Notes: a model not told the origin generated them from the letters alone. Shown: positions 6,613-30,066, counted from the first letter of the stretch. The stretch: DNA of 32,000 nt from Planktothrix sp. GU0601_MAG3 (GCA_035193785.1 CP136572.1:2000627-2032626); one strand, 5' to 3'. Translations and numbers: made by a program.

Positions 6613-8879
6613 TTACGAAGGGGGGTTAGGGGGGTCAACTTTTAACAGCTTAATATTTTGATAAAGTTGATTCAGATATTTTTCAACCTCTGGAGGTTTA
6701 GCCGTAAACTCCACATAAAAAGCTCCCGGGTTCGCCGATTTTTCTAGGACTTTTGCATAAATATCATCACTCCATTGTTCTGATTCTAATTTAATATTAA
6801 GTTTTAAATTAGCCAACGCCCCAGGAATAATATTATTATTCGCCTCCATAACAATTAAACCTCTTTTTTCCGATAATTCCACCAAATTCCCCATTAAAAT
6901 ACTATCGCTGATATGTTTTCCTTCTAAAATAAAATATTGTAATAAAATGGGAGTAGGCATCGGATAAAAATGCTGTTCCTGTTTAGAAATAAACAGATTA
7001 TAGCTTCCGGCAATTCCCCCCACTTCATAAATAGTAATCGGCTTTTTAACTCCCTTGGGTTGAACTAATTTTTGATTTTCAATCTTAATTAAATTCCGAC
7101 CCGCTTGATTTAAGGTCATTTCAGAAACCAAGATTTGTCCAGCCGTTGTATAGGATTCAATCCGATAGGTTAAATTAACTTGACTTCCTACAACCCCATA
7201 TTTTGTGCGTTTTTCTGAACCAATATTTCCCACCACAACTTCCCCCGTATTAATCCCAATTCCCATGTCTAAAGGAGATAAATTCCACGTTTGTAATTGT
7301 TTCATTCACCTTCTCCATGGCTAATTGCATAGCTACCGCACAAGCAATCGCCCTTTGAGCATCATCTTCTCGCAAGGTAGGAGCACCAAATAAGACTAAA
7401 ATTCCATCCCCCATAAACTCATCAATAGTTCCTTGATAGAGAGTAATTACATCAGCCATGCAGGATAAATAAAAGTTTAAAATTTTAACCACTTCTTCCG
7501 GTTGTAAACGTTCTGAAAGGGCTGTAAATCCGCGTAAATCCGAGGTTAAAATGGTGATTTTTCGGCGTTCTCCCCCCAGTTTTAAACCTTCGGGTTTTTC
7601 TAATAAATTAGAAACAATTTCAGCACTCAAATAACGTCCAAAAATATTCCTAATATCCGAAGCCGAACGGGCAATATAAGCAGTAATGGCAATGGCCGAA
7701 CCCGCCAAAGCTAAAAAGGGAGGAACCACCGGAATCCACCATCCTTGGATAAAGAAAAGATAGGTACTTCCCAGTAAAATTCCCGTCGCTAAGATGAAAA
7801 TTGAAAACTGTCGAATAATTAATAATCGGACTGTAGCCGATGCTCTAAATTTCCAGGTTAAAATTGCTCCGGTTCCCGACCAAATAAATATCCAAATCCA
7901 TTCTAAAGTATCGGGTAACGTCTTAATTAACGGACGACTATCTAAGGCCGCACTAATAATTTGACTGGCAATATGAGCATGAACTTCTACCCCCGCCATC
8001 CGTTGATTAGCTGATAATGTATAGGGAGTAGACATTAAATCTTTGAAACTTTCCCCGACGGAACCGATTAAAATAATTCGATTTTCCCCCCAATCTTTAG
8101 GGAGTTTATCGGTTAAAATATCCCGAAAAGAAACAATCTCAAAACTGCGATTATATCCCCGATAATTTAAAAATATTTGATATCCTCCAGCATCAGCCCG
8201 CACATAGCCGCCATCATTTTTAGTCAAGGGTTGAAAAATAGTGTCTTTGAATTTCCACCAATTATTAGTTTCTGGAACAATTTCCGGTGAAATCCCTTGA
8301 GCGTCCAAATAAAACATGGCTAAAAATAAACCCAAACTGTAAATTGGTTGTTTTTGATCATTTTTAACCACTAATAACGCCCGTCGAATAATATTATCTT
8401 CATCTAAAATTAAATCATTGGCTGCTACTCGATTTTTTTCTTTTAAAATTGGAGGGGCGGCAACGGATTCTAAGGATTTATCCCCTACAACTTTTTCAAT
8501 TCCCAGTAAATTAGGAGTTTCTGCCAAGATTTTAATTAACTGTTCGTGACCGGGTTCAAAGGGTAAATCTCGATAAATGTCTAAGCCAATAACCGTAGGT
8601 TTCATGGCGACCAATTTCTCGATTAATTGAGCATAAATTTGGTCAGGGACATAACCTTGACCAATATATTTCATATCGGCTTCATCTAACCCTACAATTG
8701 CAATCCTTTTATCCCTAGGTTTCCGGGGGACGTAGACGCATATATTGGTCATAAACTGCCCATTCCCAGGACTGTAAAATCCCAGAAAAACGCAGTAGAA
8801 TTACTAAACCTGCCATGACTGGGGTTGTAATCCAAACACCACGCCACTCCCACACTAATTGTCTGGTTTTTGCCCTCAT
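6613..8879 (-). CDS. CHASE2 sensor-domain class III adenylate/guanylate cyclase with an extra C-terminal domain, interrupted by two +1 frameshifts
   Basis: The true N-terminus [53 protein letters not shown] starts at the ATG at 8879 and is too short for the ORF track. It joins [16 protein letters not shown]... after removing one base in GTTTC at 8719..8723. The CHASE2 region, 3 TM helices and cyclase core ([12 protein letters not shown]...[13 protein letters not shown]) join ...[33 protein letters not shown] after removing one base in GTTTC at 7299..7303. Confidence 0.85.
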
Positions 8880-8912
8880 AGAGCCTATTTTTAGAATATA
8901 TGCTTTACCTTA

Positions 8913-9686
8913 CTAGGGTTTAGATTGATAATCAGAATTACTCAACGTTGTTTCTGGCGCAAAGGGAGCTTCTACAATTTGTTGGTTAATTTTAATAGAA
9001 GTGAGAAACTCTTTCCATAATTCCGGTTCAACGTTTCGCAATTGAGCCATGATCATTAAGGTATCTTGCCAGAGGTTTTCTCGAGCATAAAGTTCAGCTT
9101 TTTTTAAGGGACTTTGAGCTTTTTCTATTTCATTTTTGAATGTAGGATTGAGTTCATTTCGCTGAATAGAAACCTTCAAAGTATCAATAAATTCTTGTTC
9201 CTCCGTTCCACAGGTAATCGAAAACATCCATTGATATTGACTTCCGGTTTCTAAGGTGACGGTTTCAGGGAGTTGAATCTGTACAATACTTGGTTTTAAA
9301 GGAAGTTGCACGACCGTCGTGTAAACATCTTTGCCCTGTTGATTAATCAGAACAAATTCACCCGTTTTTACCTTAGATTCAGGCACATAAACAAAAAATG
9401 TGGGACGAGCAGAAACCGTTGAGGTCTTCCGACTGGGGACTAAGGCGGTCATTTTTGTATTTCCTATACCACACTCACTGGCGGAAATGGTTTCACCCCC
9501 TCGGGTTCCTCCTCCAGCCGTACTCACTGGCCCATCTCCATCGGGTGTGGGGGGAAATTGCAAACTGATTTGCATGGGGGTATTGACAGGATTGTTCACC
9601 AGTGGAGCCATAGTCGCGAGACTCGCAGCAGTCGGTAATAGAATGCCCAAAATCAGACTGGAAAAACCAACAGACTTGATAACCAT
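8913..9686 (-). CDS. DUF928-family secreted protein
   Basis: Probable start is the ATG at 9686 (MVIKSVGFSSLILGILLPTAASLA signal peptide, AGAGG about 10 nt upstream); the longest ORF extends to 9779. DUF928 hallmarks are present: FFVYVPE..., LP...LETGSQYQWMFSITCG, ELYARENLWQDTLMIMAQLR. Confidence 0.75.
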   Translation of the reverse strand: MVIKSVGFSSLILGILLPTAASLATMAPLVNNPVNTPMQISLQFPPTPDGDGPVSTAGGGTRGGETISASECGIGNTKMTALVPSRKTSTVSARPTFFVYVPESKVKTGEFVLINQQGKDVYTTVVQLPLKPSIVQIQLPETVTLETGSQYQWMFSITCGTEEQEFIDTLKVSIQRNELNPTFKNEIEKAQSPLKKAELYARENLWQDTLMIMAQLRNVEPELWKEFLTSIKINQQIVEAPFAPETTLSNSDYQSKP

Positions 9687-9881
9687 GAGATTATGCCTCT
9701 TTAAATATCCATTGTAATGATCCCTAAGATGCACTATCGGGATCAAAAAATCTATATCCTTTTTTTTGCGAGTTTCCACACCAAATCAGTAGATGACGGG
9801 GACTTACTCCTCCGAGACTGTTTAATCACTTCAGAAGTTGCCAAAAGGCTATTTTTTTAAGAAGATTTATATAATATTTTG

Positions 9882-10383
9882 GAGTCTAAAATTCTAAATA
9901 TCCCCACCGTTTGGGCTAAGTTTGTCGAAGCCTACAATAATAGAGTCTAAAATTCTAAATATCCCCACCGTTCGGGCTGAGTTTGTCGAAGCCTACAATA
10001 ATAGAGTCTAAAATTCTAAATATCCTCACCGTTCGGGCTGAGTTTGTCGAAGCCTACAATAATAGAGTCTAAAATTCTAAATATCCTCACCGTTCGGGCT
10101 GAGTTTGTCGAAGCCTACAATAATAGAGTCTAAAATTCTAAATATCCCCACCGTTCGGGCTGAGTTTGTCGAAGCCTTCAATAATAGAGTCTAAAATTCT
10201 AAATATCCCCACCGTTCGGGCTGAGTTTGTCGAAGCCTACAATAATAGAGTCTAAAATTCTAAATATCCCCACCGTTCGGGCTGAGTTTGTCGAAGCCTA
10301 CAATAATAGAGTCTAAAATTCTAAATATCCCCACCGTTCGGGCTGAGTTTGTCGAAGCCTTCAATAATAGAGTCTAAAATTCC
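9882..10383 (+). repeat. Tandem array of a 61-bp unit, 8 full copies plus a 14-bp partial
   Basis: The unit gagtctaaaattctaaatatccccaccgttcgggctgagtttgtcgaagcctacaataata starts at 9882, 9943, 10004, 10065, 10126, 10187, 10248, 10309 and 10370 (partial). Copies differ only by a few SNPs (ccccacc/cctcacc, cctaca/ccttca). Confidence 0.95.
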
Positions 10384-10403
10384 CATCTTTGAGGACTAAA
10401 ATC

Positions 10404-10775
10404 ATGTCATTTTGGGTTTATATCCTCCGTTGTGCAGACGGTAGCTATTACACGGGACATACTGACAATCTTGACCAGCGATTTGCTGAACATACAACTG
10501 GAGCTATAGCATCCTGCTACACCTATCAGCGTCGCCCTGTAGAATTAGTCTTTTCTCAGGAATTTGCAACCAGGGAAGAGGCGTTGGCTTCGGAGCGTCA
10601 AATTAAGGGGTGGAGCCGGAAGAAGAAGGAAGCTATGATGCTTGGAGATTGGGCTGAGGTGTCACGTCTGGCTCGCTCTTACTCTGCTCAAATCCCAAAT
10701 CACAACGTTCAGACTTCGATAAACTCAGGCCAAATGTCCTTCGACAAGCTCAGGACGAACGGGGAGGATATTTGA
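10404..10775 (+). CDS. GIY-YIG nuclease family protein (UPF0213/COG2827 type)
   Basis: ATG at 10404 lies 8 nt after GAGGA. It encodes FWVYILRCADGSYYTGHTDNLDQRFAEH...RRPVELVFSQEFATREEALASERQIKGWSRKKKEAM. The last ~20 codons (..SFDKLRTNGEDI) are translated from repeat copies. Confidence 0.85.
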   Translation: MSFWVYILRCADGSYYTGHTDNLDQRFAEHTTGAIASCYTYQRRPVELVFSQEFATREEALASERQIKGWSRKKKEAMMLGDWAEVSRLARSYSAQIPNHNVQTSINSGQMSFDKLRTNGEDI

Positions 10776-10845
10776 TACTCCTGAATATTCCGGCGACTCT
10801 CTAATTTCTCCAAACGACAAGCTCAGGACGAACGGGGAGGATATT
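10742..10845 (+). repeat. Two perfect 31-bp direct copies (cgacaagctcaggacgaacggggaggatatt), inverted relative to the core of the upstream 61-bp unit
   Basis: Copies lie at 10742..10772 and 10815..10845, with a degenerate third at about 10714..10736 (cttcgataaactcaggccaaatg). The reverse complement matches aatatccYcaccgttcgggctgagtttgtcgaag at about 29 of 36 positions. Confidence 0.85.
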
Positions 10846-10856
10846 GCAAGATAGAT

Positions 10857-13586
10857 TTAATCTTGAATTCCTCGCCATTCTCCTTGTAAAGTAAACCCTG
10901 ACCAATAGTAGGGGGGTACCCATCCTGAATCGTTTTGCATCTGAATTTGAGCCTGTCGTAAAGCCGCCCCAGGAGCTAATCCTTCCTCTAATATTCCTTT
11001 ATAAAATTTAACCATTAATTCGGCTGTTGATTGGTCATCAACTTTCCATAAACTCACCACCACTCGACTTGCTCCCGCATACATAAATCCCCTAGTTAAA
11101 CCAACTAATCCTTCCCCTTTGATCTCTTGACCTAATCCTGTTTCACAGGCACTTAATACCACTAATTCTGCGGGTAAACTTAGGTTAAAGATATCATAAA
11201 GTCGTAAAAATCCATTCTGAGATTCTCCATTTTGATTAACTAAAGAAAAAACTAAACCTGATAACTGAGGATTTTCACTATTGAGTAAACCATGGGTGGC
11301 AAAATGCACAAAACGGTATTGACTTAATTGGGGATTGGTTGCGGTTTCTCGACTAGCATTAAAACCCACTTCTTGTAAACTATTGTCTTCAGGAACTAAC
11401 CCTAAAATTTGGTTTGCTTCTTCTTGGGTAAAGGGTAAACGATCAAATAAAACCCCCGATTCTCTGGCGGAACGTTCTAAATCTGGAGGAAGCGCTTTCA
11501 GTGCTTGAAGAACAACGGATTTTAAGCGATCATCTGTGGAAGCAAATACGGGATCAGCTAATACAGCTAAGAGTTTTTCTGGGGGTTTTCGATTTTGATT
11601 TTCTTCCCGCATAATTCCCAAAACTGAAGCCGAAGGTAGGGTTAATAATTCATGATTTATAATTAAAGGAATCGCCTCGCTATCCCCAGGGGCTCCCGGT
11701 TCGGGAAGGGCGGCAAAAGGAACATATTGTAATGCACCATCGGCGACAATCAATAATCGTTTATTTTTTAAGGATGGGATTAAGGGGAAAGCAATTTGGG
11801 TCAGGGCTTTTCCCGTTTCTTCGTATAGCGATCGCCGCAATCTTTTACTAGGTAAAATCAGATTATCTCTAAAGTTTTTAACGGCGGTTTCAATAGTTTT
11901 TTCTGGGGGTAATTCATAACTTTTGATAGAATTAGGAGTAACGGCCCATAAATAACTGCGTTCTTTGCCGACGGCATATTCTAATAAAACCGTCTGGTCA
12001 TCTAATAACTTTTGAATCCCAGTTAGAGTTAAGGGTTGGGGTTGAGTTAAGGTGGCATAATGGGGATTATTTACCCGAATGGTATCTAAAACTTGGCTAT
12101 AGTCTTGGAGTAAGATTTCAATTTCTTGGTTGAGTTCCTGTTTCTGTTGATTCGTATGGGGCTGACTCAAAAGTTTAACTCGCTGTTCTTCTAAAGTCGA
12201 TAATTTTTGTTTTAAGGTTTGTTTTTTAGTTAAAAGTTGGGGGTCAATTCCCGAGGTCACTTCTCCTTGAGCTTGAGCTAAAATATCTAATAGGGATCTA
12301 GCCTTTGCTCGTTCACTAATTTGTAAGGCTTTTCCATCCCATCCTTGATTCGGTTGTTGTTGATTCAGTTGCATTAACAAATCAATATAGAATTGGTAAT
12401 AGTCCTGTTTAGATGCTAAAAAAGAGGCTCTTAAGTCTTGACTATTAATCTTAGTTCGTAAATCTTCAACAATAGTTAAAGCCGTTTCAATTTGGGCGAT
12501 CGCCTCTGCAAAATTACCCTTTTTTCGTTCAACTGTCGCCACTCGATATCGAGATAAGGCTTCTTTTGGTTGATCGCCGATTTCTTGACGAATTTTTAAA
12601 GATTGATGATATAATTCTAAGGATTTCTCTAACTTGTTTTGCTGAAAATAAATAAACCCGATATTATTTAGGGTACTGGCTTCTCCGGTGCGATCGCCAA
12701 TTTTCTGCCAGAAATTTAAGGCTTGATTATAGGTTTCTAAAGCTGAATCTAATCGATTCAAATTTGCATAAACAAAACCAATATTATTTAAGGTTGCGCC
12801 TTTCCCACGCTGCACGTTAACCGCCACACTATCCCCAAATTTATTAATAACTTCTTCCCATAAAGCCAAGGCTTGTTGATTATGCTTGAGGGCGACTTCA
12901 AACCGATTTAATTCCGACTCCACCTGGGCAATATTATTTAAAACCGCCGCTACATTCGTAGGGTTTCCTAAAGGTTTAACCCCAACCAAGGCTTGATTAT
13001 AATAATTTAGAGCTTGTTGAAATTCTCCTAAATTAAAATAAATCAAAGCCATCTCATTTAAAGTGGCGATTTCTCCGGTTTTAAAATTAGTTTTTTGCCA
13101 TAAAGGGAAGGTTTGATTTAGAGTATCTAAGGCTTTTTGATATTCCCCTAATTGACCATAAATCTTAGCGATAGAAATTAACGTTGTGGCTTGGGTTTGT
13201 TGATCTTCCAAGGTTTGAGTTAAAACCAATAATTGATTATAACAATTAATCGCTTTGGGATATTCTCCTAAACTACTATAAACAGAACATAAAAAATTAC
13301 GAGTCATCAATTCCTGCTGAGGGTTATTAGCTTCTCGCCCCAGACGTAACCCTTCTTCCCATTGTTGAATCGCCCCCCGAAAGCCAGCTATCGTCCCCTC
13401 TCGATAACGTTTTATCCCTTGATTAAAGATATCTTCTGCCTTAGAATTAGAATTAGTGATTTCTGTAGATTGCCCTTCCCTTGCGATCGCCGGGAGAAGG
13501 ATTCCAGAAACTAAAAAAGACCCCAGAATCAGGAGGCAAAACCAGGCCAACAAAAATTGATTTCTGCGTCTATTACTGTGTATCAT
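10857..13586 (-). CDS. TPR-repeat CHAT-domain protein (caspase-like protease fold) with an N-terminal signal/anchor
   Basis: 909 aa. There is an N-terminal hydrophobic segment and about 8 TPR units (LNNIGFVYANL, LNNIGFIYFQQ...). The C-terminal CHAT domain has the His/Cys dyad context FVHFATHG and VVLSACETG. Confidence 0.9.
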   Translation of the reverse strand: MIHSNRRRNQFLLAWFCLLILGSFLVSGILLPAIAREGQSTEITNSNSKAEDIFNQGIKRYREGTIAGFRGAIQQWEEGLRLGREANNPQQELMTRNFLCSVYSSLGEYPKAINCYNQLLVLTQTLEDQQTQATTLISIAKIYGQLGEYQKALDTLNQTFPLWQKTNFKTGEIATLNEMALIYFNLGEFQQALNYYNQALVGVKPLGNPTNVAAVLNNIAQVESELNRFEVALKHNQQALALWEEVINKFGDSVAVNVQRGKGATLNNIGFVYANLNRLDSALETYNQALNFWQKIGDRTGEASTLNNIGFIYFQQNKLEKSLELYHQSLKIRQEIGDQPKEALSRYRVATVERKKGNFAEAIAQIETALTIVEDLRTKINSQDLRASFLASKQDYYQFYIDLLMQLNQQQPNQGWDGKALQISERAKARSLLDILAQAQGEVTSGIDPQLLTKKQTLKQKLSTLEEQRVKLLSQPHTNQQKQELNQEIEILLQDYSQVLDTIRVNNPHYATLTQPQPLTLTGIQKLLDDQTVLLEYAVGKERSYLWAVTPNSIKSYELPPEKTIETAVKNFRDNLILPSKRLRRSLYEETGKALTQIAFPLIPSLKNKRLLIVADGALQYVPFAALPEPGAPGDSEAIPLIINHELLTLPSASVLGIMREENQNRKPPEKLLAVLADPVFASTDDRLKSVVLQALKALPPDLERSARESGVLFDRLPFTQEEANQILGLVPEDNSLQEVGFNASRETATNPQLSQYRFVHFATHGLLNSENPQLSGLVFSLVNQNGESQNGFLRLYDIFNLSLPAELVVLSACETGLGQEIKGEGLVGLTRGFMYAGASRVVVSLWKVDDQSTAELMVKFYKGILEEGLAPGAALRQAQIQMQNDSGWVPPYYWSGFTLQGEWRGIQD

Positions 13587-13838
13587 AATTTAATTCCTGC
13601 TTAAACTCAATTTTTGAGGATCAGGTTGTTAAAAGTTTATGATCAATAATTATGATCAATAATAGGGATTATCTTACCCTGATCCGTGATCAAGAGTTTC
13701 TAATTATTGAAAGTTTCTCATTTTCTTCTTAACTTATGTTCACGATTCCTATTTTTTCTGCATCATTTCTGAGTTTCTCAACCTAATCGGGACTGGAAGC
13801 TAATTTTAAAGGGTTTCAGCGCTGGAGTTTCCCTAGTT

Positions 13839-14513
13839 TTGAGTCTGGGACTGTTTCAAAGACCAACGCTTGCTCAAATTGATCTTGCCATCATCCTAGA
13901 AATTATCGATGGAGATCAAGTTTTTATTCAAGAAAATCAAGCTAAAGTAGAAGACCAAGCGGAATTGGGACAAATTATTGTCACAAAAGAATCTCGCGCT
14001 GGGGTTATATTTAATAATGGTGCATCGGGACGCATGAATACTAACTCCCAAATTGCCGTCGGTCAATGTGTAGAAATTAAACAGGGACAAATATTAGTTA
14101 GTGGCCCGGTTAATGGATGTATTGCTGGGCTGACTGTTGGTGTTCAAGGAACAATTTATATCATGGAAATGACCGATGGAAAAACAGGTAATATTAAAGT
14201 TTTAGAAGGCACTGTGGAAGTCACCTCCGCCGATGGAACAGGAGAACCCATACAAGTTACCGAAGGACAAAAAGTATCTATTTTCCAGGGCATTTTAAGT
14301 CAAGTGATTCCCATGACTCCAGAAGAAATATCCTCTATTTTACTCGGTGAATTATTCTCCGGGTTTAATATTCCTATTACTCCCCAAGGATTATTATCTT
14401 CCGTTTGTTCTCGTCTTTTACCCGGGTTTACCTGTTCCCAAAATGGGATTCCCACCCCAGCCATTCCCACCCCTCCTATTCCAACGCCTCCAATTCCACG
14501 TTTACCATTTTAA
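13839..14513 (+). CDS. FecR-domain-like secreted protein with a Pro-rich C-terminus
   Basis: Beta-rich pattern ...AGVIFNNGASGRMNTNSQIAV...GQILVSGP...GVQGTIYIME...IKVLEGTVEVTS...VTEGQKVSI, ending in IPTPAIPTPPIPTPPIP. The start is uncertain: 13839 is TTG. The ATG at 13736 (MFTIPIFSASFLS...) would join in frame if one T were removed from GTTTC at 13773..13777. Confidence 0.55.
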   Translation: MSLGLFQRPTLAQIDLAIILEIIDGDQVFIQENQAKVEDQAELGQIIVTKESRAGVIFNNGASGRMNTNSQIAVGQCVEIKQGQILVSGPVNGCIAGLTVGVQGTIYIMEMTDGKTGNIKVLEGTVEVTSADGTGEPIQVTEGQKVSIFQGILSQVIPMTPEEISSILLGELFSGFNIPITPQGLLSSVCSRLLPGFTCSQNGIPTPAIPTPPIPTPPIPRLPF

Positions 14514-14604
14514 ATGATTAATAGGTAATAGCTAATAAACTGGTAACTGATGACTGATGTAATAATGATAGAATCTATAACTGTAAACAATTGTGCCAAA
14601 AAAT

Positions 14605-16480
14605 ATGACTCCATCTAATCCAGAAGATAGTATAATTATGACTGAATCGACTCATCCCTATACTGCCCTGATCACCGAACTATATCAACAGGCGATTAAA
14701 TTTCAGGAAAGTGAGAATTTTGCCGAAGCGATCGCTTGTTACCAAAAACTAATTAATATTGAACCTAAATTAGTCTTAGGATATCAAAGGATTGGCAGTC
14801 TTTCCCTAAAAACCCAAGAATTTGAACAGGCAATTGCAGCTTATCAAAAATTAATTGAATTGAGTCCCAATGAATTTTGGGCTTATAATAATTTAGGAGA
14901 AGCATTGCTAAAATTAAAGCGATGGGAAGAAGCTATTCCTATTTATGAAAAAGCGATTGAAATAGACCCGAATTGCTTTTGGGGTTATAATAGTTTAGGG
15001 GAATGTTTAATCCAAACTGGACAACTAGAAAAAGCCGTCCCTATTTATCAAAAAGCTATTGAATTAGATCCTGAATTTTGGGGAGTTTATCAAAAATTAG
15101 CAGAGGCATTAACCACTTTAGAAAAATGGGAAGAATCCATACCCATCTACCGCCGGGCTATTGAATTAAAACCAGACTTTTTTTGGTCGTATGTAAGTTT
15201 AGGAAAAGCCTTAATTCAGTTAGAAAGATGGCAAGAGGCGATTCCCGTTTGTCAACAGGCGATTTCTATTGATCCTAGTTTCTTTTGGTCTTATATTAAT
15301 TTAGCCGATTCCCTATTTAATTTAGGAAGATGGCCAGAAGCCATTGAAGTTTATACCACAGCTAATCAAATTAAATCGGATTTCTTTTGGTCTTATAAAA
15401 ATTTAGGGGATGCCTTGATTCAATTGCAGCAATGGCAAGGTGCCATTCCGGTTTATCAACAAGCCTTAGAACTCAATTCCACTGAACCCTCATGCTATTA
15501 TAACCTAGGTTTAGCCTATCTCAATTTACAACAAAACCCCGATGCTATTTCTGCTTTTAAAACCGCTTTAAAACTGAATCCAGATTATAGTTTAGCTCAA
15601 AAAAAATTAGACGAAATTATCGTAATTGATTCTCCCCCATCCCCCCATCAACTCGAACCCATTGACTGGTTAAAATATTATCCTAAATCGGGACAAGCCC
15701 CCTCCTATTGTTTACCTAAAACCACAACTTTAGGCAAAAATCCCCAAACCGGAAAATGGCAATTTCCCGTTCCTCCTGAAGATTTGAGGTTAGTTTTTGT
15801 AGAGAATGAAGAATATTATCTCAACTCGGGGAAAACACAAGTTCAAGTCATGTTAAGTATCTTGCGAGAGTGTGGATATTTCCTCAAAACCGGAAGCCGA
15901 ATTTTAGATTTTGGTTGTGCATCGGGACGCATTCTTAGGGAGTTAGCTGATTTATCGGATATTTGTGAAATTTGGGGGACGGATATTAGTGCCGATTGTA
16001 TTGCTTGGTGTCAACAAAATATGAGTCCTCCCTTTCATTTTTTCGTCGGAAACAACCCTACCCCATTTACCCTTTGAAGACCGCTATTTTGATTTAATTT
16101 ATGCGGGTTCAGTCTTCACCCATATTGACGATTTAGCCGATGCCTGGTTGTTAGAACTCCGTCGGATTTTAAAACCCGGGGGACTGGCTTTTATTACGAT
16201 TCAAGAAAGTTATATTTTTGATAAAATTAAAGAATCTCCTGAAGTCTGGCTTTCTAATAATAATGTCTGGCCGCCCGAACAAAAGTTAGCCTGTATTCAG
16301 AACTATTTTGAATATATTAATCAAGATTTTGCCATGTTTACCCTAGGACGGGATACCCGGTCTTTGGTGTTCTATGACGTGAATTATTTCCGCGAAAAAT
16401 GGAAACCCTTTTTCCAAGTTTTAGCGGTTAAACAAGAAGCCTATTATTGGCAAACAGGAATTTTATTAAAGCGCCTTTAA
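14605..16480 (+). CDS. TPR-repeat protein fused to a class I SAM-dependent methyltransferase, interrupted by a +1 frameshift
   Basis: About 9 TPR units (AIxxYQKAIELxP with FWxYxxLG) are followed by the SAM motif ILDFGCASGRIL. ORFs 14593..16077 and 16148..16480 join as ...FHFFVGTTLPHLPFEDRYFDLIYAGSVFTHIDD... when one A is removed from GAAAC at 16049..16053. The ATG at 14605 is preferred over the GTG at 14593. Confidence 0.75.
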
Positions 16481-20965: not shown

Positions 20966-22310
20966 ATGGTCAAAAGTGTTGAGGAAATTTTAGACTTAAC
21001 GGAAGCGTTGATTATTGCTAACGGAAAAAAACCGCTGAGTTATATTCAGAAAGTTATTTTAAAAGAAGCGTTATTAGAAACAAAAAAAACCTACGATCAA
21101 ATTGCTGAAGACAATGGCTATTCTCCCAATTATTTAAAAAATGGAGTCGCCCCGCACCTCTGGCAACTTTTATCGGATGTGGTGGGCGAAAAAGTGACTA
21201 AGGCTAATTGCCACTGTTTATTAAGACAGGAATTAAATTATCAAGATATCCCTAAAATTATTCCAGAATTTGTTTTTCCTAAAGCAAATTTTTTAGAATC
21301 TCCAGAAGGCCAAGTTCCGCTTGATTCTATTTTTTATATTGAGCGATCGCCCATTGAATTAACCTGTTATCAAGAGATTCAAAATCAAGGAGCATTACTG
21401 CGAATTAAAGCCCCTAGAAAGATGGGTAAAACCTCCTTAATGGCTCGAATTTTAGATCACGCTCAACAGCAAGGTTATCATCCCGTTCGTTTAAGTCTCC
21501 ATCTTGCCAGTAGTTTAGTCTTTACCTCAACGGAAAAATTCTTACGTTGGCTTTGTGCTAATGTAGCTCAACAGTTGGAATTAGAATCTAAAATAGATGA
21601 TTTTTGGGATGAAGATGTAGGAACATTAGTCAGTAGTTCTCTGTATTTTCAAGGGTATTTATTAGAATTAATTAAAGAACCGATTGTTTTAGCTATTGAT
21701 GAAGTTAATCAATTATTTGAGTATCCTTCCTTAGCCCGGGATGTCTTGGCTTTATTAAGATCTTGGCATGAAGAAACCCGAGATATTAGCAATTGGAAAA
21801 AATTAAGGTTTGTGATTGTCTATTCAACGGATATTTATATCCCCTTAGATACAAATAAATCTCCATTTAACGTCGGTTTAGGAGTTGATTTACTGCCTTT
21901 TAATATTAGTCAAATTGAAACTCTAGCGCAACGATATGGATTAAAATTAATGGATAAAGAGTTAAAAAAATTTACAGAATTTATTGGAGGATTTCCTTTT
22001 TTAGCAAGATTAGCCTTTGATCATTGTGTGCGTCGTAATATTCCCCTCCCAGAGTTACTAAAACAAGCCATCAGTGATACAGGAATTTATGCCGATCATC
22101 TCCACGAACAGTTATGGTTACTTGAGCAAGACCCCGATTTAGTCACCGCCTATCAACAAGTTATTAGTACAAATCAACCTATCAAAATTGAACATGTGAA
22201 AGCGTTTAAATTAAAAAGTATGGGATTGGTTTCATATTGATGGAAATTCAGTTATTCCCAGTTGTGAGTTATACCGTCAATATTTTCAGGAGTATTTTAG
22301 GGAAGTTTGA
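20966..22310 (+). CDS. AAA-like domain ATPase (PF14516-type) with an N-terminal helical/HTH-like module; the C-terminus is cut by a +1 frameshift
   Basis: Walker A is APRKMGKTSL and Walker B is VLAIDEV. The ORF stops at 22240, but deleting one T from GTTTC at 22229..22233 extends it to ...SMGLVHIDGNSVIPSCELYRQYFQEYFREV* (stop at 22308..22310). Confidence 0.7.
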
Positions 22311-29575: not shown

Positions 29576-29693
29576 ACCTGGCACCGAGCTATTTTCCCAG
29601 ACGGCTACCCGCCAAGTATCTTCGCCGTATCAGCGTTTCACTTCCGAGTTCGAGATGGATCGGAGTGGTTCCACTGAGCCATAGGCACCAGGA
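29576..29693 (-). rRNA. rrf: 5S ribosomal RNA (copy 1)
   Basis: The minus strand reads TCCTGGTGCCTATGGCTCAGTGGAACCACTCCGATCCATCTCGAACTCGGAAGTGAAACGCTGATACGGCGAAGATACTTGGCGGGTAGCCGTCTGGGAAAATAGCTCGGTGCCAGGT. It has the conserved CCGAAC-type loop region, GAAGTGAAAC and closing helix I, and is about 118 nt long. Confidence 0.9.
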
Positions 29694-29948: not shown

Positions 29949-30066
29949 ACCTGGCACCGAGCTATTTTCCCAGACGGCTACCCGCCAAGTATCTTCGCCG
30001 TATCAGCGTTTCACTTCCGAGTTCGAGATGGATCGGAGTGGTTCCACTGAGCCATAGGCACCAGGA
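29949..30066 (-). rRNA. rrf: 5S ribosomal RNA (copy 2)
   Basis: Same sequence as copy 1, offset by 373 bp. The track ORF 29850..30050 is antisense to it and spurious. Confidence 0.9.

What the first reader, a model, noticed from the sequence alone, without database searches (positions are those of the whole stretch)
6613..14513. CHASE2 cyclase, DUF928, TPR-CHAT protease and FecR-like protein: a candidate envelope caspase-like signalling module
Four neighbouring genes all encode proteins with signal peptides or membrane anchors. They are a CHASE2 extracytoplasmic sensor fused to a class III nucleotide cyclase, a DUF928 protein, a 909-aa TPR plus CHAT (caspase-fold, His/Cys dyad intact) protein, and a divergently transcribed FecR-domain-like protein. 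To my recollection, which I cannot verify here, CHAT, DUF928, CHASE2 and FecR-type genes recur together in cyanobacterial genomes, and no function has been assigned to the ensemble. The architecture suggests a periplasmic sensing and proteolysis unit (TPR scaffold, CHAT protease, FecR-like and DUF928 partners or substrates) coupled to cytoplasmic cNMP production. That resembles a regulated-proteolysis or cell-fate switch more than metabolism.
Basis: partly seen in the sequence, partly recalled or inferred. Interest (0 to 1): 0.7.

Follow-up and report, generated by a model that had tools for sequence, protein, structure and literature searches.

The report
Envelope protease pair beside cGMP receptor
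In this Planktothrix genome a membrane receptor that makes the signalling molecule cGMP sits, with its conserved helper protein, next to an exported caspase-like protease and that protease's partner; these genes recur together across cyanobacteria, nobody has worked out what they do, and the model strain Synechocystis 6803 has all of them, so the idea can be tested.

Summary
The CHASE2 cyclase is split into three ORFs. The FecR-like gene loses its membrane anchor to a frameshift. All mapped frameshifts are +1 insertions giving GAAAC, as in other split genes of the window including dnaN, so they are probably assembly errors. A GIY-YIG gene and a 61-bp tandem repeat lie between CHAT and DUF928.

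The cluster is two tightly conserved pairs.
- **DUF928 then CHASE2 cyclase.** DUF928 lay directly upstream in 6 of 6 further orthologues checked. The cyclase is the orthologue of the Synechocystis guanylate cyclase Cya2, so the likely product is cGMP.
- **Exported TPR-CHAT protease, divergent from a periplasmic FecR-fold protein (sll1892 family).** They are adjacent in 39 of 66 species-level loci, against about 0.2 expected.

All four genes lie together only in Planktothrix. The pairs are still linked in three ways. Orthologous DUF928 sits beside CHAT/FecR-like in Synechocystis and Snowella. CHAT-CHASE2 fusion proteins sit next to DUF928 on cyanobacterial plasmids. FecR-like, CHASE2 cyclase and CHAT genes cluster elsewhere.

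My best reading is a periplasmic proteolytic input to a cGMP receptor. The function is untested, and the "cell-fate switch" idea has no support. I found no published description of the ensemble.

The parts
6613..8879 (-). CHASE2-sensor guanylate cyclase, orthologue of Synechocystis Cya2. Layout: TM1, periplasmic CHASE2, about 3 TM segments, class III cyclase, then an uncharacterised C-terminal extension of about 130 aa. It reads as three ORFs because of +1 A insertions at about 8722 and about 7302.
   Evidence: Pfam CHASE2 2.8e-55 and Guanylate_cyc. The two indels are mapped against P. agardhii L004 at 91% DNA identity. Removing two A's gives an uninterrupted 754-aa ORF, with TM1 at 17-35 and a hydrophobic block at about 350-403. 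The catalytic domain matches Cya2 (PDB 2w01) at 1.7e-84 and keeps [10 protein letters not shown] (Glu) and KYGVVG (Gly). Cya2 is a CHASE2-regulated guanylate cyclase, and E488K turns it into an adenylate cyclase.
8913..9686 (-). DUF928 protein (257 aa). It has a signal peptide and a conserved N-terminal arm (GGGTRG...C...LTALVP), then an Ig-like beta-sandwich and a C-terminal helical bundle. It lies 33 bp upstream of the cyclase and is probably co-transcribed with it.
   Evidence: Pfam DUF928 2.6e-45. Alignments A1 and A3 give the invariant residues G60, R62, C159 and others. The AF2 model has pLDDT 78, above 90 in the core, and has no informative PDB match. DUF928 lies directly upstream of the cyclase in 6 of 6 further orthologues.
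9882..10382 (.). 61-bp tandem repeat, 8.2 copies, in the spacer between DUF928 and CHAT. It is an insertion and not part of the module.
   Evidence: TRF reports 98% matches. Inverted copies lie at 10739-10773 and 10815-10845.
10389..10775 (+). Small GIY-YIG nuclease-family gene inserted between DUF928 and CHAT. It is not part of the module. The same spacer holds an IS605 TnpB gene or a ParE toxin gene in P. agardhii, and nothing in P. pseudagardhii.
   Evidence: Pfam GIY-YIG 8.6e-20. Neighbourhoods L007, L010 and L011. The Logan contig of the same sample ends 41 bp after the CHAT stop codon.
10857..13586 (-). Exported TPR-CHAT protease (909 aa). It has an N-terminal signal or anchor (RRR, hydrophobic stretch, AIA|RE), TPR repeats within roughly residues 70-380, and a C-terminal caspase-fold CHAT domain (590-902) with an intact His/Cys dyad.
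   Evidence: Pfam CHAT 3.3e-68 and TPR_12 2.4e-48. HFATHG and VVLSACET are present, and the dyad motifs occur in all 49 full-length CHAT homologues examined. Most FecR-like-adjacent orthologues show an N-terminal hydrophobic segment: 26 of the 46 scored rows pass a strict cut-off, and many have AxA-type sites by eye. There is no indel against the P. agardhii orthologue.
13587..13735 (.). 149-bp divergent intergenic region shared by the CHAT gene and the FecR-like gene. It presumably carries a shared promoter or regulatory region.
   Evidence: Coordinates. The median spacing of the divergent pair is 111 bp across 39 loci. The scan gives only consensus promoter-like hits, which are not evidence of function.
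13736..14513 (+). FecR-fold periplasmic protein of the sll1892 family, 258 aa after repair. It has an N-terminal TM or signal segment, a beta-rich FecR-like domain with four invariant Cys, and a Pro-rich tail ending in ...LPF. A frameshift at GTTTC 13773-13777 leaves only 13839-14513 in frame.
   Evidence: It is 72% identical to the 257-aa P. pseudagardhii protein. Frameshift and repair are shown. Pfam FecR is weak but is the only family hit, in 8 of 20 members with best E 2e-4. The AF2 model of the 85%-identical P. agardhii orthologue P0038 has pLDDT 85. Its top Foldseek hits are the PupR C-terminal cell-surface signalling domain 6ovk (E 2.3e-5) and the anti-sigma factor BDI_1681, both at probability 1.0. 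Invariant Cys and the C-terminal Phe are seen.

Best explanation
The interval holds an envelope signalling module made of two conserved gene pairs.

**Pair 1** is an operon of DUF928 followed by a CHASE2 guanylate cyclase, the Cya2 orthologue. I infer that DUF928 is a secreted periplasmic co-receptor or regulator of the CHASE2 sensor domain, and that the receptor turns a periplasmic event into cytoplasmic cGMP.

**Pair 2** is a Sec-exported TPR-CHAT cysteine protease transcribed divergently from a small periplasmic FecR-fold protein of the sll1892 family. I infer that the FecR-fold protein is the protease's regulator or substrate. Its conserved Pro-rich tail ending in ...LPF-COOH is the kind of ligand that TPR arrays bind.

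I propose that Pair 2 feeds into Pair 1. Regulated proteolysis in the periplasm, of DUF928 or of the FecR-like protein, would change the state of the CHASE2 domain and so change cGMP synthesis. cGMP would then act through cNMP-binding proteins or channels and be removed by a metallo-beta-lactamase-fold phosphodiesterase; genes of both kinds flank the operon in relatives.

**Shown:** domain identities, the catalytic motifs, export-type N-termini, and conservation of each pair and of the links between them.

**Inferred:** every physical interaction, the protease substrate, and the direction of signalling.
For: **Identity**
- The cyclase domain matches Cya2 (2w01) at 1.7e-84 and keeps the Glu/Gly specificity residues and the Asp metal ligands. 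Cya2 is a CHASE2-regulated guanylate cyclase.
- The FecR fold is supported.
- The CHAT dyad is present in 49 of 49 homologues.

**Pair 1**
- DUF928 is directly upstream of the cyclase, with spacing from -4 to about 100 bp, in Capilliphycus, Limnospira, Aphanothece, a JGI genome, Lyngbya and Coleofasciculus, and in Planktothrix.
- 8 of 9 plasmid-borne DUF928 genes also abut a CHASE2 gene.

**Pair 2**
- 39 of 66 FecR-like loci from species-representative genomes have a TPR-CHAT gene of about 900 aa immediately divergent.
- The background is 0.0067 CHAT genes per kb, which gives a binomial tail of 8e-79.

**Links between the pairs**
- All four genes lie within 10 kb in several Planktothrix lineages, in two different gene orders.
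- In a neighbour-joining tree without bootstrap support, the DUF928 proteins that sit beside CHAT/FecR-like in Synechocystis and Snowella fall inside the cyclase-linked DUF928 clade.
- CHAT is fused to CHASE2 in three DUF928-adjacent proteins.
- FecR-like, FecR-like, CHASE2 cyclase and a TPS-CHAT protein are clustered in L052, with a similar cluster in L053.
- FecR-domain proteins are operon partners or neighbours of CHASE2 sensors in Burkholderia (PMC5192318) and next to the cAMP-controlled target smc02178 in S. meliloti (PMC5498481).

**Downstream**
- An Apyc1-like metallo-beta-lactamase gene and cNMP-binding genes follow the operon in L093 and L094.
- A cNMP-binding ion channel lies close by in P. 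agardhii.
Against: - In 29 of 39 FecR-like/CHAT loci no DUF928 lies within 10 kb. None of the six extra DUF928-cyclase operons has a CHAT gene within 8 kb. In Capilliphycus the two pairs are about 700 kb apart.
- Some P. agardhii strains have lost CHAT and FecR-like but kept DUF928 and the cyclase. The protease pair is therefore not needed for the receptor.
- Cya2-type operons occur in genera where my scan found no sll1892-like gene, although the scan used only two peptide patterns.
- In this window a repeat array and an opposite-strand gene separate CHAT from DUF928, so they are separate transcription units.
- There is no interaction, cleavage or expression evidence of any kind.
- In the CHAT-CHASE2 fusions the CHAT domain is cytoplasmic, unlike the exported one here.
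- The DUF928 tree has no bootstrap support.
- Three of the genes' reading frames are broken in the deposited sequence.
Confidence: 0.45

Rival explanations
1. The interval holds two independent systems that happen to be adjacent in Planktothrix. One is a DUF928/Cya2 cGMP receptor operon. The other is an unrelated exported TPR-CHAT/FecR-like pair whose job lies elsewhere in the envelope, for example processing or releasing surface or two-partner-secretion proteins, in the manner of the periplasmic protease LapG.
For: Most genomes keep the pairs apart. The CHAT/FecR-like pair is deleted as a unit in P. agardhii L004 and L005. The spacer between the pairs is an insertion hot spot. CHAT genes elsewhere sit beside TpsA/TpsB and RTX-repeat genes, and one is fused to a TPS secretion domain.
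Against: Orthologous DUF928 sits next to CHAT/FecR-like in Synechocystis and Snowella without the cyclase. DUF928 lies within 10 kb in 10 of 39 CHAT/FecR-like loci, well above my rough estimate of a few percent by chance. Linkage survives a change of gene order within Planktothrix. CHAT-CHASE2 fusions and FecR-like/CHASE2-cyclase/CHAT clusters exist.
Confidence: 0.33
2. The module is a conflict or programmed-cell-death system. The CHASE2 receptor detects envelope damage or an invader and triggers a caspase-like effector and a nucleotide alarm signal.
For: On cyanobacterial plasmids, DUF928-adjacent CHASE2 proteins carry three TIR domains, a CHAT domain or an AAA_35 domain. Published surveys place caspase-CHASE2 fusions in bacterial apoptosis-like systems (PMC8195603). 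The window also encodes an AAA_35 protein with an HTH_VMAP-M9 domain at 20966-22240.
Against: PADLOC has no match for DUF928, the FecR-like protein or the CHAT domain, and the cyclase gives only generic PycC hits. The Cya2-type operon is chromosomal and 60-90% identical across distant cyanobacteria, which is unlike fast-evolving defence genes. The CHAT protease here is exported, so it cannot attack cytoplasmic targets.
Confidence: 0.1
3. In this organism the module is a decaying remnant. The cyclase and the FecR-like gene are true pseudogenes.
For: There are three frameshifts in the deposited sequence. The Logan assembly of run SRR25183167 calls the same truncated FecR-like gene and the same split TPR-methyltransferase gene.
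Against: All four frameshifts that could be mapped, three within this interval and one in the adjacent TPR-methyltransferase gene at about 16050, are +1 insertions giving GAAAC/GTTTC where relatives have a GAAC-like sequence. Junctions of nearly all other split genes, including essential dnaN, carry the same pentamer. There are no other disabling changes, and identity to intact orthologues is 85-91%. Each frame is restored by deleting one base. This pattern fits a systematic base-calling or assembly error.
Confidence: 0.08

Closest known systems
Synechocystis sp. PCC 6803 Cya2 (sll0646), CHASE2-regulated guanylate cyclase (PDB 2w01)
   Same: The architecture is the same: CHASE2, TM segments, class III cyclase and a C-terminal extension, about 750 aa in total. 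The catalytic domains are near-identical and share the Glu/Gly GTP-specificity residues.
   Different: The papers read here describe Cya2 on its own, with no signal or partner given for its CHASE2 domain. The conserved upstream DUF928 gene and the link to a CHAT/FecR-like pair appear in no paper in the library searched.
FecR-domain protein plus CHASE2 sensor arrangements: the Burkholderia BiofilmReg operon (LysM-FecR protein with a CHASE2 histidine kinase), and the S. meliloti CyaD1/CyaD2/CyaK-Clr cascade with its targets SMc02177 (FecR domain), SMc02178 and SMb20495 (TPR)
   Same: A secreted FecR-domain protein is encoded with, or functionally tied to, a CHASE2 receptor. In S. meliloti a CHASE2 cyclase pathway, a FecR-domain protein and a large exported TPR protein act in one phenotype.
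   Different: The outputs differ: a histidine kinase in Burkholderia and cAMP with Clr in S. meliloti. Neither paper mentions DUF928 or CHAT. The S. meliloti proteins are downstream targets that are not needed for signal perception. I could not test whether SMb20495 has a CHAT domain.
FecR/PupR-type anti-sigma regulators of cell-surface signalling
   Same: The predicted fold of the periplasmic domain matches the PupR C-terminal signalling domain and BDI_1681. FecR-family proteins are regulated by periplasmic proteolysis; this last point rests on my own knowledge.
   Different: There is no cytoplasmic anti-sigma domain. Only about 45 residues, containing one TM or signal helix, precede the fold. 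No ECF sigma factor or TonB-dependent transducer gene is adjacent. The Pfam score is below threshold.
Characterised CHAT proteases: Anabaena HetF (cleaves PatU3), Craspase TPR-CHAT/Csx29, SAVED-CHAT
   Same: The caspase-fold CHAT domain with a His/Cys dyad is shared, and so is the TPR+CHAT architecture of Csx29. Each of these enzymes cleaves a specific partner protein to switch a pathway (abstracts listed, and my own knowledge).
   Different: Those enzymes act in the cytoplasm or at the inner face of the membrane. This one has an export signal, no CRISPR or cOA context, and no sequence hit to any solved CHAT structure.
LapD-LapG (functional analogy only)
   Same: A periplasmic cysteine protease is coupled to an inner-membrane protein tied to cyclic-nucleotide signalling. 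This rests on my own knowledge.
   Different: No homology was detected or tested. In the Lap system the nucleotide controls the protease from inside the cell; here I propose the opposite direction.

Membership tests
CHASE2 sensor (PF05226) | HMM match above the gathering score, with the domain bracketed by transmembrane segments | tested here: met
   188 bits against a 26.3-bit cut-off on the 500-aa fragment. TM1 lies at 17-35 and a hydrophobic block at about 350-403 in the repaired protein.
Class III nucleotidyl cyclase, Cya2-type guanylate cyclase | The two metal-binding Asp, the transition-state Asn/Arg, and Glu plus Gly at the positions that are Lys and Asp in adenylate cyclases | tested here: met
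   The alignment to 2w01 shows [23 protein letters not shown] and QVNLTYRIE all conserved. The role of E488 is taken from PMC5995499. Enzyme activity itself was not tested.
Class III nucleotidyl cyclase, Cya2-type guanylate cyclase | An uninterrupted reading frame | tested here: not met
   There are two +1 frameshifts in the deposited sequence. Both are at GAAAC and are probably artefacts.
DUF928 (PF06051) | HMM match above the gathering score | tested here: met
   154.9 bits against a 26-bit cut-off, covering profile positions 2-183 of 184.
CHAT caspase-fold peptidase (PF12770) | HMM match plus the catalytic His and Cys | tested here: met
   230.7 bits. HFATHG and VVLSACET are present and are conserved in 49 of 49 homologues. 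Proteolytic activity was not tested.
FecR domain (PF04773) | HMM match above the gathering score | tested here: not met
   19 bits against a 24-bit cut-off. 8 of 20 family members hit FecR weakly and hit nothing else.
FecR domain (PF04773) | The fold of the FecR/PupR periplasmic signalling domain | tested here: met
   Foldseek probability 1.0, E 2.3e-5 to 2.4e-4 against 6ovk_R and 4m0n/4m0h, with TM-scores of only 0.33-0.49. The model has pLDDT 85.
FecR-type anti-sigma regulator (cell-surface signalling) | An N-terminal cytoplasmic anti-sigma domain, and an adjacent ECF sigma factor or TonB-dependent transducer gene | tested here: not met
   Only about 45 residues with one TM or signal helix precede the fold. 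No such genes appear in the window or in the orthologous neighbourhoods.
Type III-E Craspase (Csx29 TPR-CHAT) | Association with gRAMP/Cas7-11 and Csx30/Csx31, and a cytoplasmic location | tested here: not met
   No Cas-family Pfam hits appear among the called neighbours. The protein has an export-type N-terminus.
Known anti-phage defence systems (PADLOC-DB) | A match of the components to defence-system models | tested here: not met
   There are no hits for DUF928 or the FecR-like protein. The CHAT protein gives only a generic TPR hit, and the cyclase gives generic PycC hits.

The most novel reading that the evidence does not exclude
An exported caspase-fold (CHAT) protease and its FecR-fold partner form a periplasmic proteolytic switch. 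The switch cleaves or releases DUF928, for example at the invariant Arg of its flexible GGGTRG arm. DUF928 is the hitherto unknown ligand or co-receptor of the CHASE2 domain, so proteolysis gates cGMP synthesis by Cya2. This would be an outside-in, caspase-like signalling cascade in the bacterial envelope.
Probability: 0.2. Interest if true: 0.8.

Novelty: new variant of a known kind. Interest (0 to 1): 0.55.

Why it matters
Cya2 was described in a 2014 review as the only confirmed bacterial guanylate cyclase. None of the papers I read says what its CHASE2 sensor detects.

A partner gene found directly upstream in every orthologue checked (DUF928) gives a concrete candidate for that input. A recurrently linked exported CHAT protease and FecR-fold protein give a second candidate layer.

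It would also give a first functional context to three sizeable groups of uncharacterised cyanobacterial proteins: DUF928, the sll1892 family, and the signal-peptide-bearing TPR-CHAT proteins.

All four genes have orthologues in the genetically tractable Synechocystis 6803: cya2, sll1891, sll1892 and the adjacent CHAT gene. The hypothesis can therefore be tested directly.

On plasmids the same DUF928+CHASE2 pair carries CHAT, TIR, AAA_35 or kinase modules. This suggests one shared periplasmic sensing device with interchangeable cytoplasmic parts.

Tried and rejected
- **DUF928-anchored genome scan.** The search for related loci with the DUF928 alignment failed because no conserved stretch of 7-10 columns exists. 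I anchored the genome scan on the FecR-like family instead, and used plasmid tblastn for DUF928.
- **Sequence search of PDB with the CHAT protein.** It returned only TPR proteins and no CHAT structure.
- **Foldseek on the DUF928 model.** It gave only generic Ig, Fn3 and CBM sandwiches with TM-scores around 0.25 for the query, so no function could be inferred.
- **Is S. meliloti SMb20495 a TPR-CHAT protein?** A tblastn of the CHAT domain against plasmids did not show it among the 60 of 260 records listed. The question remains open.
- **Close CHAT homologues on Nostocales plasmids.** They sit in arrays of CHAT and caspase genes without a FecR-like gene.
- **Supplementary tables of a Synechocystis expression meta-analysis.** They held none of the genes.
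- **FecR-like paralogues at about 40% identity without CHAT.** They neighbour a pentapeptide-repeat protein and a 2050-aa protein with no Pfam hit, which was not informative.
- **Wholesale GAAC-to-GAAAC conversion.** GAAC is not depleted, so only a minority of sites is affected.
- **Programmed frameshifting.** I did not pursue this.

Full report
**What is in the sequence**

The window comes from Planktothrix sp. GU0601_MAG3 (GCA_030545275.1, contig JAULAM010000015.1).

| Feature | Window coordinates | Pfam result |
|---|---|---|
| CHASE2 + Guanylate_cyc | minus strand, 6613-8879 | CHASE2 2.8e-55 |
| DUF928 | 8913-9779, likely start 9686 | 2.6e-45 |
| TPR + CHAT, 909 aa | 10857-13586 | CHAT 3.3e-68 |
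| FecR-like ORF, divergent | 13839-14513 | FecR E=0.002, 19 bits, cut-off 24 |

The CHAT dyad is intact: HFATHG and VVLSACET.

1. The cyclase is split into three ORFs of 54, 500 and 230 aa.
2. The FecR-like ORF begins after its membrane anchor. The anchor is encoded from ATG 13736 in another frame.
3. A GIY-YIG gene (10389-10775, + strand) and a 61-bp x 8.2 tandem repeat (9882-10382) lie between DUF928 and CHAT.

**Are the frameshifts real?**

I aligned the region to orthologous DNA. Four coding frameshifts could be mapped: about 8722 and 7302 in the cyclase, about 13777 in the FecR-like gene, and about 16050 in the neighbouring TPR-methyltransferase. All four are +1 insertions that give GAAAC/GTTTC where relatives have a GAAC-like sequence. 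The 2730-nt CHAT gene has no indel.

The junctions of almost all other split genes in the window carry the same pentamer. These include dnaN, phosphoketolase, PepX and an MCP gene. GAAC is not globally depleted, so only a minority of sites is affected.

Deleting one base at each site restores a 754-aa cyclase and a 258-aa FecR-like protein that match their orthologues in length. I conclude that these are most likely systematic sequencing or assembly errors. Only the reads can settle this. The Logan assembly of the same run reproduces two of the breaks, but it derives from the same reads.

**Identity of the parts**

- **Cyclase.** The catalytic domain matches the crystal-structure sequence of Synechocystis Cya2 (2w01) at 1.7e-84. 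It keeps [10 protein letters not shown], with the Glu whose E488K change converts Cya2 to an adenylate cyclase, and KYGVVG. Cya2 is a CHASE2-regulated guanylate cyclase of 756 aa. The window gene is therefore a Cya2 orthologue and the expected product is cGMP. The family is 60-90% identical across many cyanobacteria.
- **FecR-like protein.** It belongs to a well-conserved family of about 250 aa that includes Synechocystis sll1892. Members have an N-terminal TM or signal helix, four invariant cysteines, and a Pro-rich tail ending in LPF. FecR is the only Pfam family that members hit, and weakly (8 of 20). An AF2 model of the P. agardhii orthologue P0038 (pLDDT 85) finds the PupR C-terminal signalling domain and the anti-sigma factor BDI_1681 as its only significant PDB matches (probability 1.0, E about 1e-5 to 1e-4, TM 0.33-0.49). 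The protein has the FecR fold but no anti-sigma domain.
- **DUF928.** The model shows an Ig-like sandwich plus a helical bundle (pLDDT 78) with no informative structural neighbour. Its flexible N-terminal arm carries an invariant Gly-x-Arg followed by a Cys.
- **TPR-CHAT.** Most FecR-like-adjacent orthologues show a positively charged N-terminus followed by a hydrophobic stretch. 26 of the 46 scored rows pass a strict hydropathy cut-off, and many have AxA-type sites by eye. This fits Sec export.

**Conservation**

*FecR-like and CHAT.* A scan of one genome per species with the FecR-like alignment gave 70 loci. I searched their ORFs with HMMs that I built and iterated. In 39 of 66 eligible loci a CHAT gene of about 900 aa lies immediately divergent, with a median gap of 111 bp. 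The background in the distant flanks is 0.0067 CHAT genes per kb, which gives a binomial tail of 8e-79. The loci without CHAT are more distant paralogues.

*DUF928 and CHASE2.* Six further Cya2-type orthologues from distant genera all have DUF928 directly upstream, in one case overlapping by 4 bp. Eight of nine plasmid-borne DUF928 genes abut a CHASE2 gene. Those CHASE2 proteins carry an N-terminal CHAT domain (three cases), three TIR domains, AAA_35, a histidine-kinase ATPase domain, or nothing.

*All four together.* This occurs only in Planktothrix lineages. It occurs in two different gene orders. The contents of the CHAT-DUF928 spacer vary: IS605 TnpB, ParE, GIY-YIG plus repeats, or nothing. 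Some P. agardhii strains have lost CHAT and FecR-like as a unit.

**Are the two pairs one system?**

Evidence for:
- In Synechocystis 6803 and relatives, and in Snowella, DUF928 (sll1891) lies against the CHAT gene, which is divergent from sll1892, and no cyclase is nearby. From gene numbering the CHAT gene is probably slr1968.
- In a neighbour-joining tree without bootstrap support, these DUF928 proteins fall inside the Cya2-linked clade and away from the plasmid types.
- DUF928 lies within 10 kb of 10 of 39 CHAT/FecR-like pairs.
- CHAT-CHASE2 fusion proteins exist.
- FecR-like, FecR-like, CHASE2 cyclase and CHAT genes are clustered in L052 and L053. The L052 CHAT protein is a 1703-aa TPS-CHAT exoprotein.
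- FecR-domain proteins accompany CHASE2 sensors in Burkholderia. In S. meliloti a FecR-domain protein, a periplasmic protein and a large exported TPR protein act in the same phenotype as the CHASE2 cyclases.

Evidence against:
- Most genomes keep the pairs apart.
- The protease pair is dispensable.
- The Cya2 operon appears to be more widespread than the sll1892 family.

**Mechanism proposed**

Shown:
- The receptor is Cya2-type.
- Each pair is conserved.
- The N-termini are of the export type.
- The catalytic motifs are intact.

Inferred:
- DUF928 is the periplasmic partner of CHASE2.
- The FecR-fold protein is the regulator or substrate of TPR-CHAT, possibly docking its LPF tail in the TPR array.
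- Proteolysis modulates CHASE2 and hence cGMP.
- cGMP acts on cNMP-binding proteins or channels and is removed by an Apyc1-like metallo-beta-lactamase-fold enzyme. Genes of both kinds flank the operon in relatives.

I put about 0.45 on this coupled model and about 0.33 on two independent systems. A defence or cell-death reading gets about 0.1, because PADLOC gives nothing specific. A true pseudogene remnant gets under 0.1.

**Literature and novelty**

In the library searched, DUF928 appears in one paper. That paper notes a CHASE2-DUF928-WD40 cluster in Nostoc punctiforme and an acid-stress response of sll1891. sll1892 appears only as a heat-induced gene of unknown function. slr1968 appears only as an unknown protein repressed by iron deprivation. 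No paper links CHAT, FecR, DUF928 and CHASE2.

The cyclase is a known enzyme, and FecR-plus-CHASE2 pairing has precedents. The strict DUF928-Cya2 operon, the exported CHAT/FecR-fold pair and their linkage appear to be undescribed. I therefore rate this a new variant of a known kind, of moderate interest. It is well suited to testing in Synechocystis 6803.

Noticed in passing
window ~3963/3973, 5544, 7302, 8722, 13777, 16050, 18569, 23096, 23610, 27986/28043: Many genes in the window are split, including dnaN, phosphoketolase, PepX, an MCP gene, the TPR-methyltransferase, the cyclase and the FecR-like gene. Every frameshift that could be mapped is a +1 insertion giving GAAAC/GTTTC. This is probably a motif-specific base-calling or assembly error in this MAG, and it would inflate pseudogene counts across the whole genome.
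   Followed up: partly
window 9882-10382, 10739-10773, 10815-10845, 10389-10775: A 61-bp tandem repeat (8.2 copies, 98% matches) lies next to a small GIY-YIG gene. The 3' end of that gene and its downstream flank carry inverted copies of part of the repeat unit. The Logan contig of the same sample breaks here, which suggests a multi-copy or mobile element.
   Followed up: partly
L010 5364-6572; L011 6697-7074; L004/L005: The spacer between CHAT and DUF928 is an insertion hot spot in Planktothrix. It holds IS605 TnpB in one P. agardhii assembly and a ParE-like toxin in another. Some strains lack the whole CHAT plus FecR-like pair.
   Followed up: partly
L082, L083, L087, L088, L089 (cyanobacterial plasmids): CHASE2 proteins encoded next to DUF928 carry N-terminal CHAT, three TIR domains or AAA_35. 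These are membrane receptors with death- or defence-type cytoplasmic domains. TpsA/TpsB and RTX-repeat genes are often nearby.
   Followed up: partly
L093 10439-11887; L094 10282-12679; L011 135-1505: In two genomes the DUF928-Cya2 operon is followed by a metallo-beta-lactamase-fold gene resembling the anti-Pycsar protein Apyc1 and by a cNMP-binding protein or mechanosensitive channel. A cNMP-binding ion channel lies three genes away in P. agardhii. These are candidate cGMP turnover and effector genes.
   Followed up: no
L052 13614-18725: A 1703-aa protein has an N-terminal two-partner-secretion (TPS) domain and a C-terminal CHAT domain. It lies beside two FecR-like genes and a CHASE2 cyclase, and shows that CHAT domains can be secreted.
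   Followed up: partly
window 29576-29692 and 29949-30065 (minus strand): There are two 5S rRNA genes with identical scores, 373 bp apart, and no 23S or 16S rRNA match anywhere in the window.
   Followed up: no
window 20966-22240: A 424-aa protein carries HTH_VMAP-M9 and AAA_35 domains, a type of component known from conflict systems. It lies a few kb from the module. AAA_35 is also fused to CHASE2 in L088.
   Followed up: no
window 14593-16480: A TPR-methyltransferase gene, split at about 16050, follows the FecR-like gene in all Planktothrix loci seen but not in other genera. It is probably not part of the module.
   Followed up: partly
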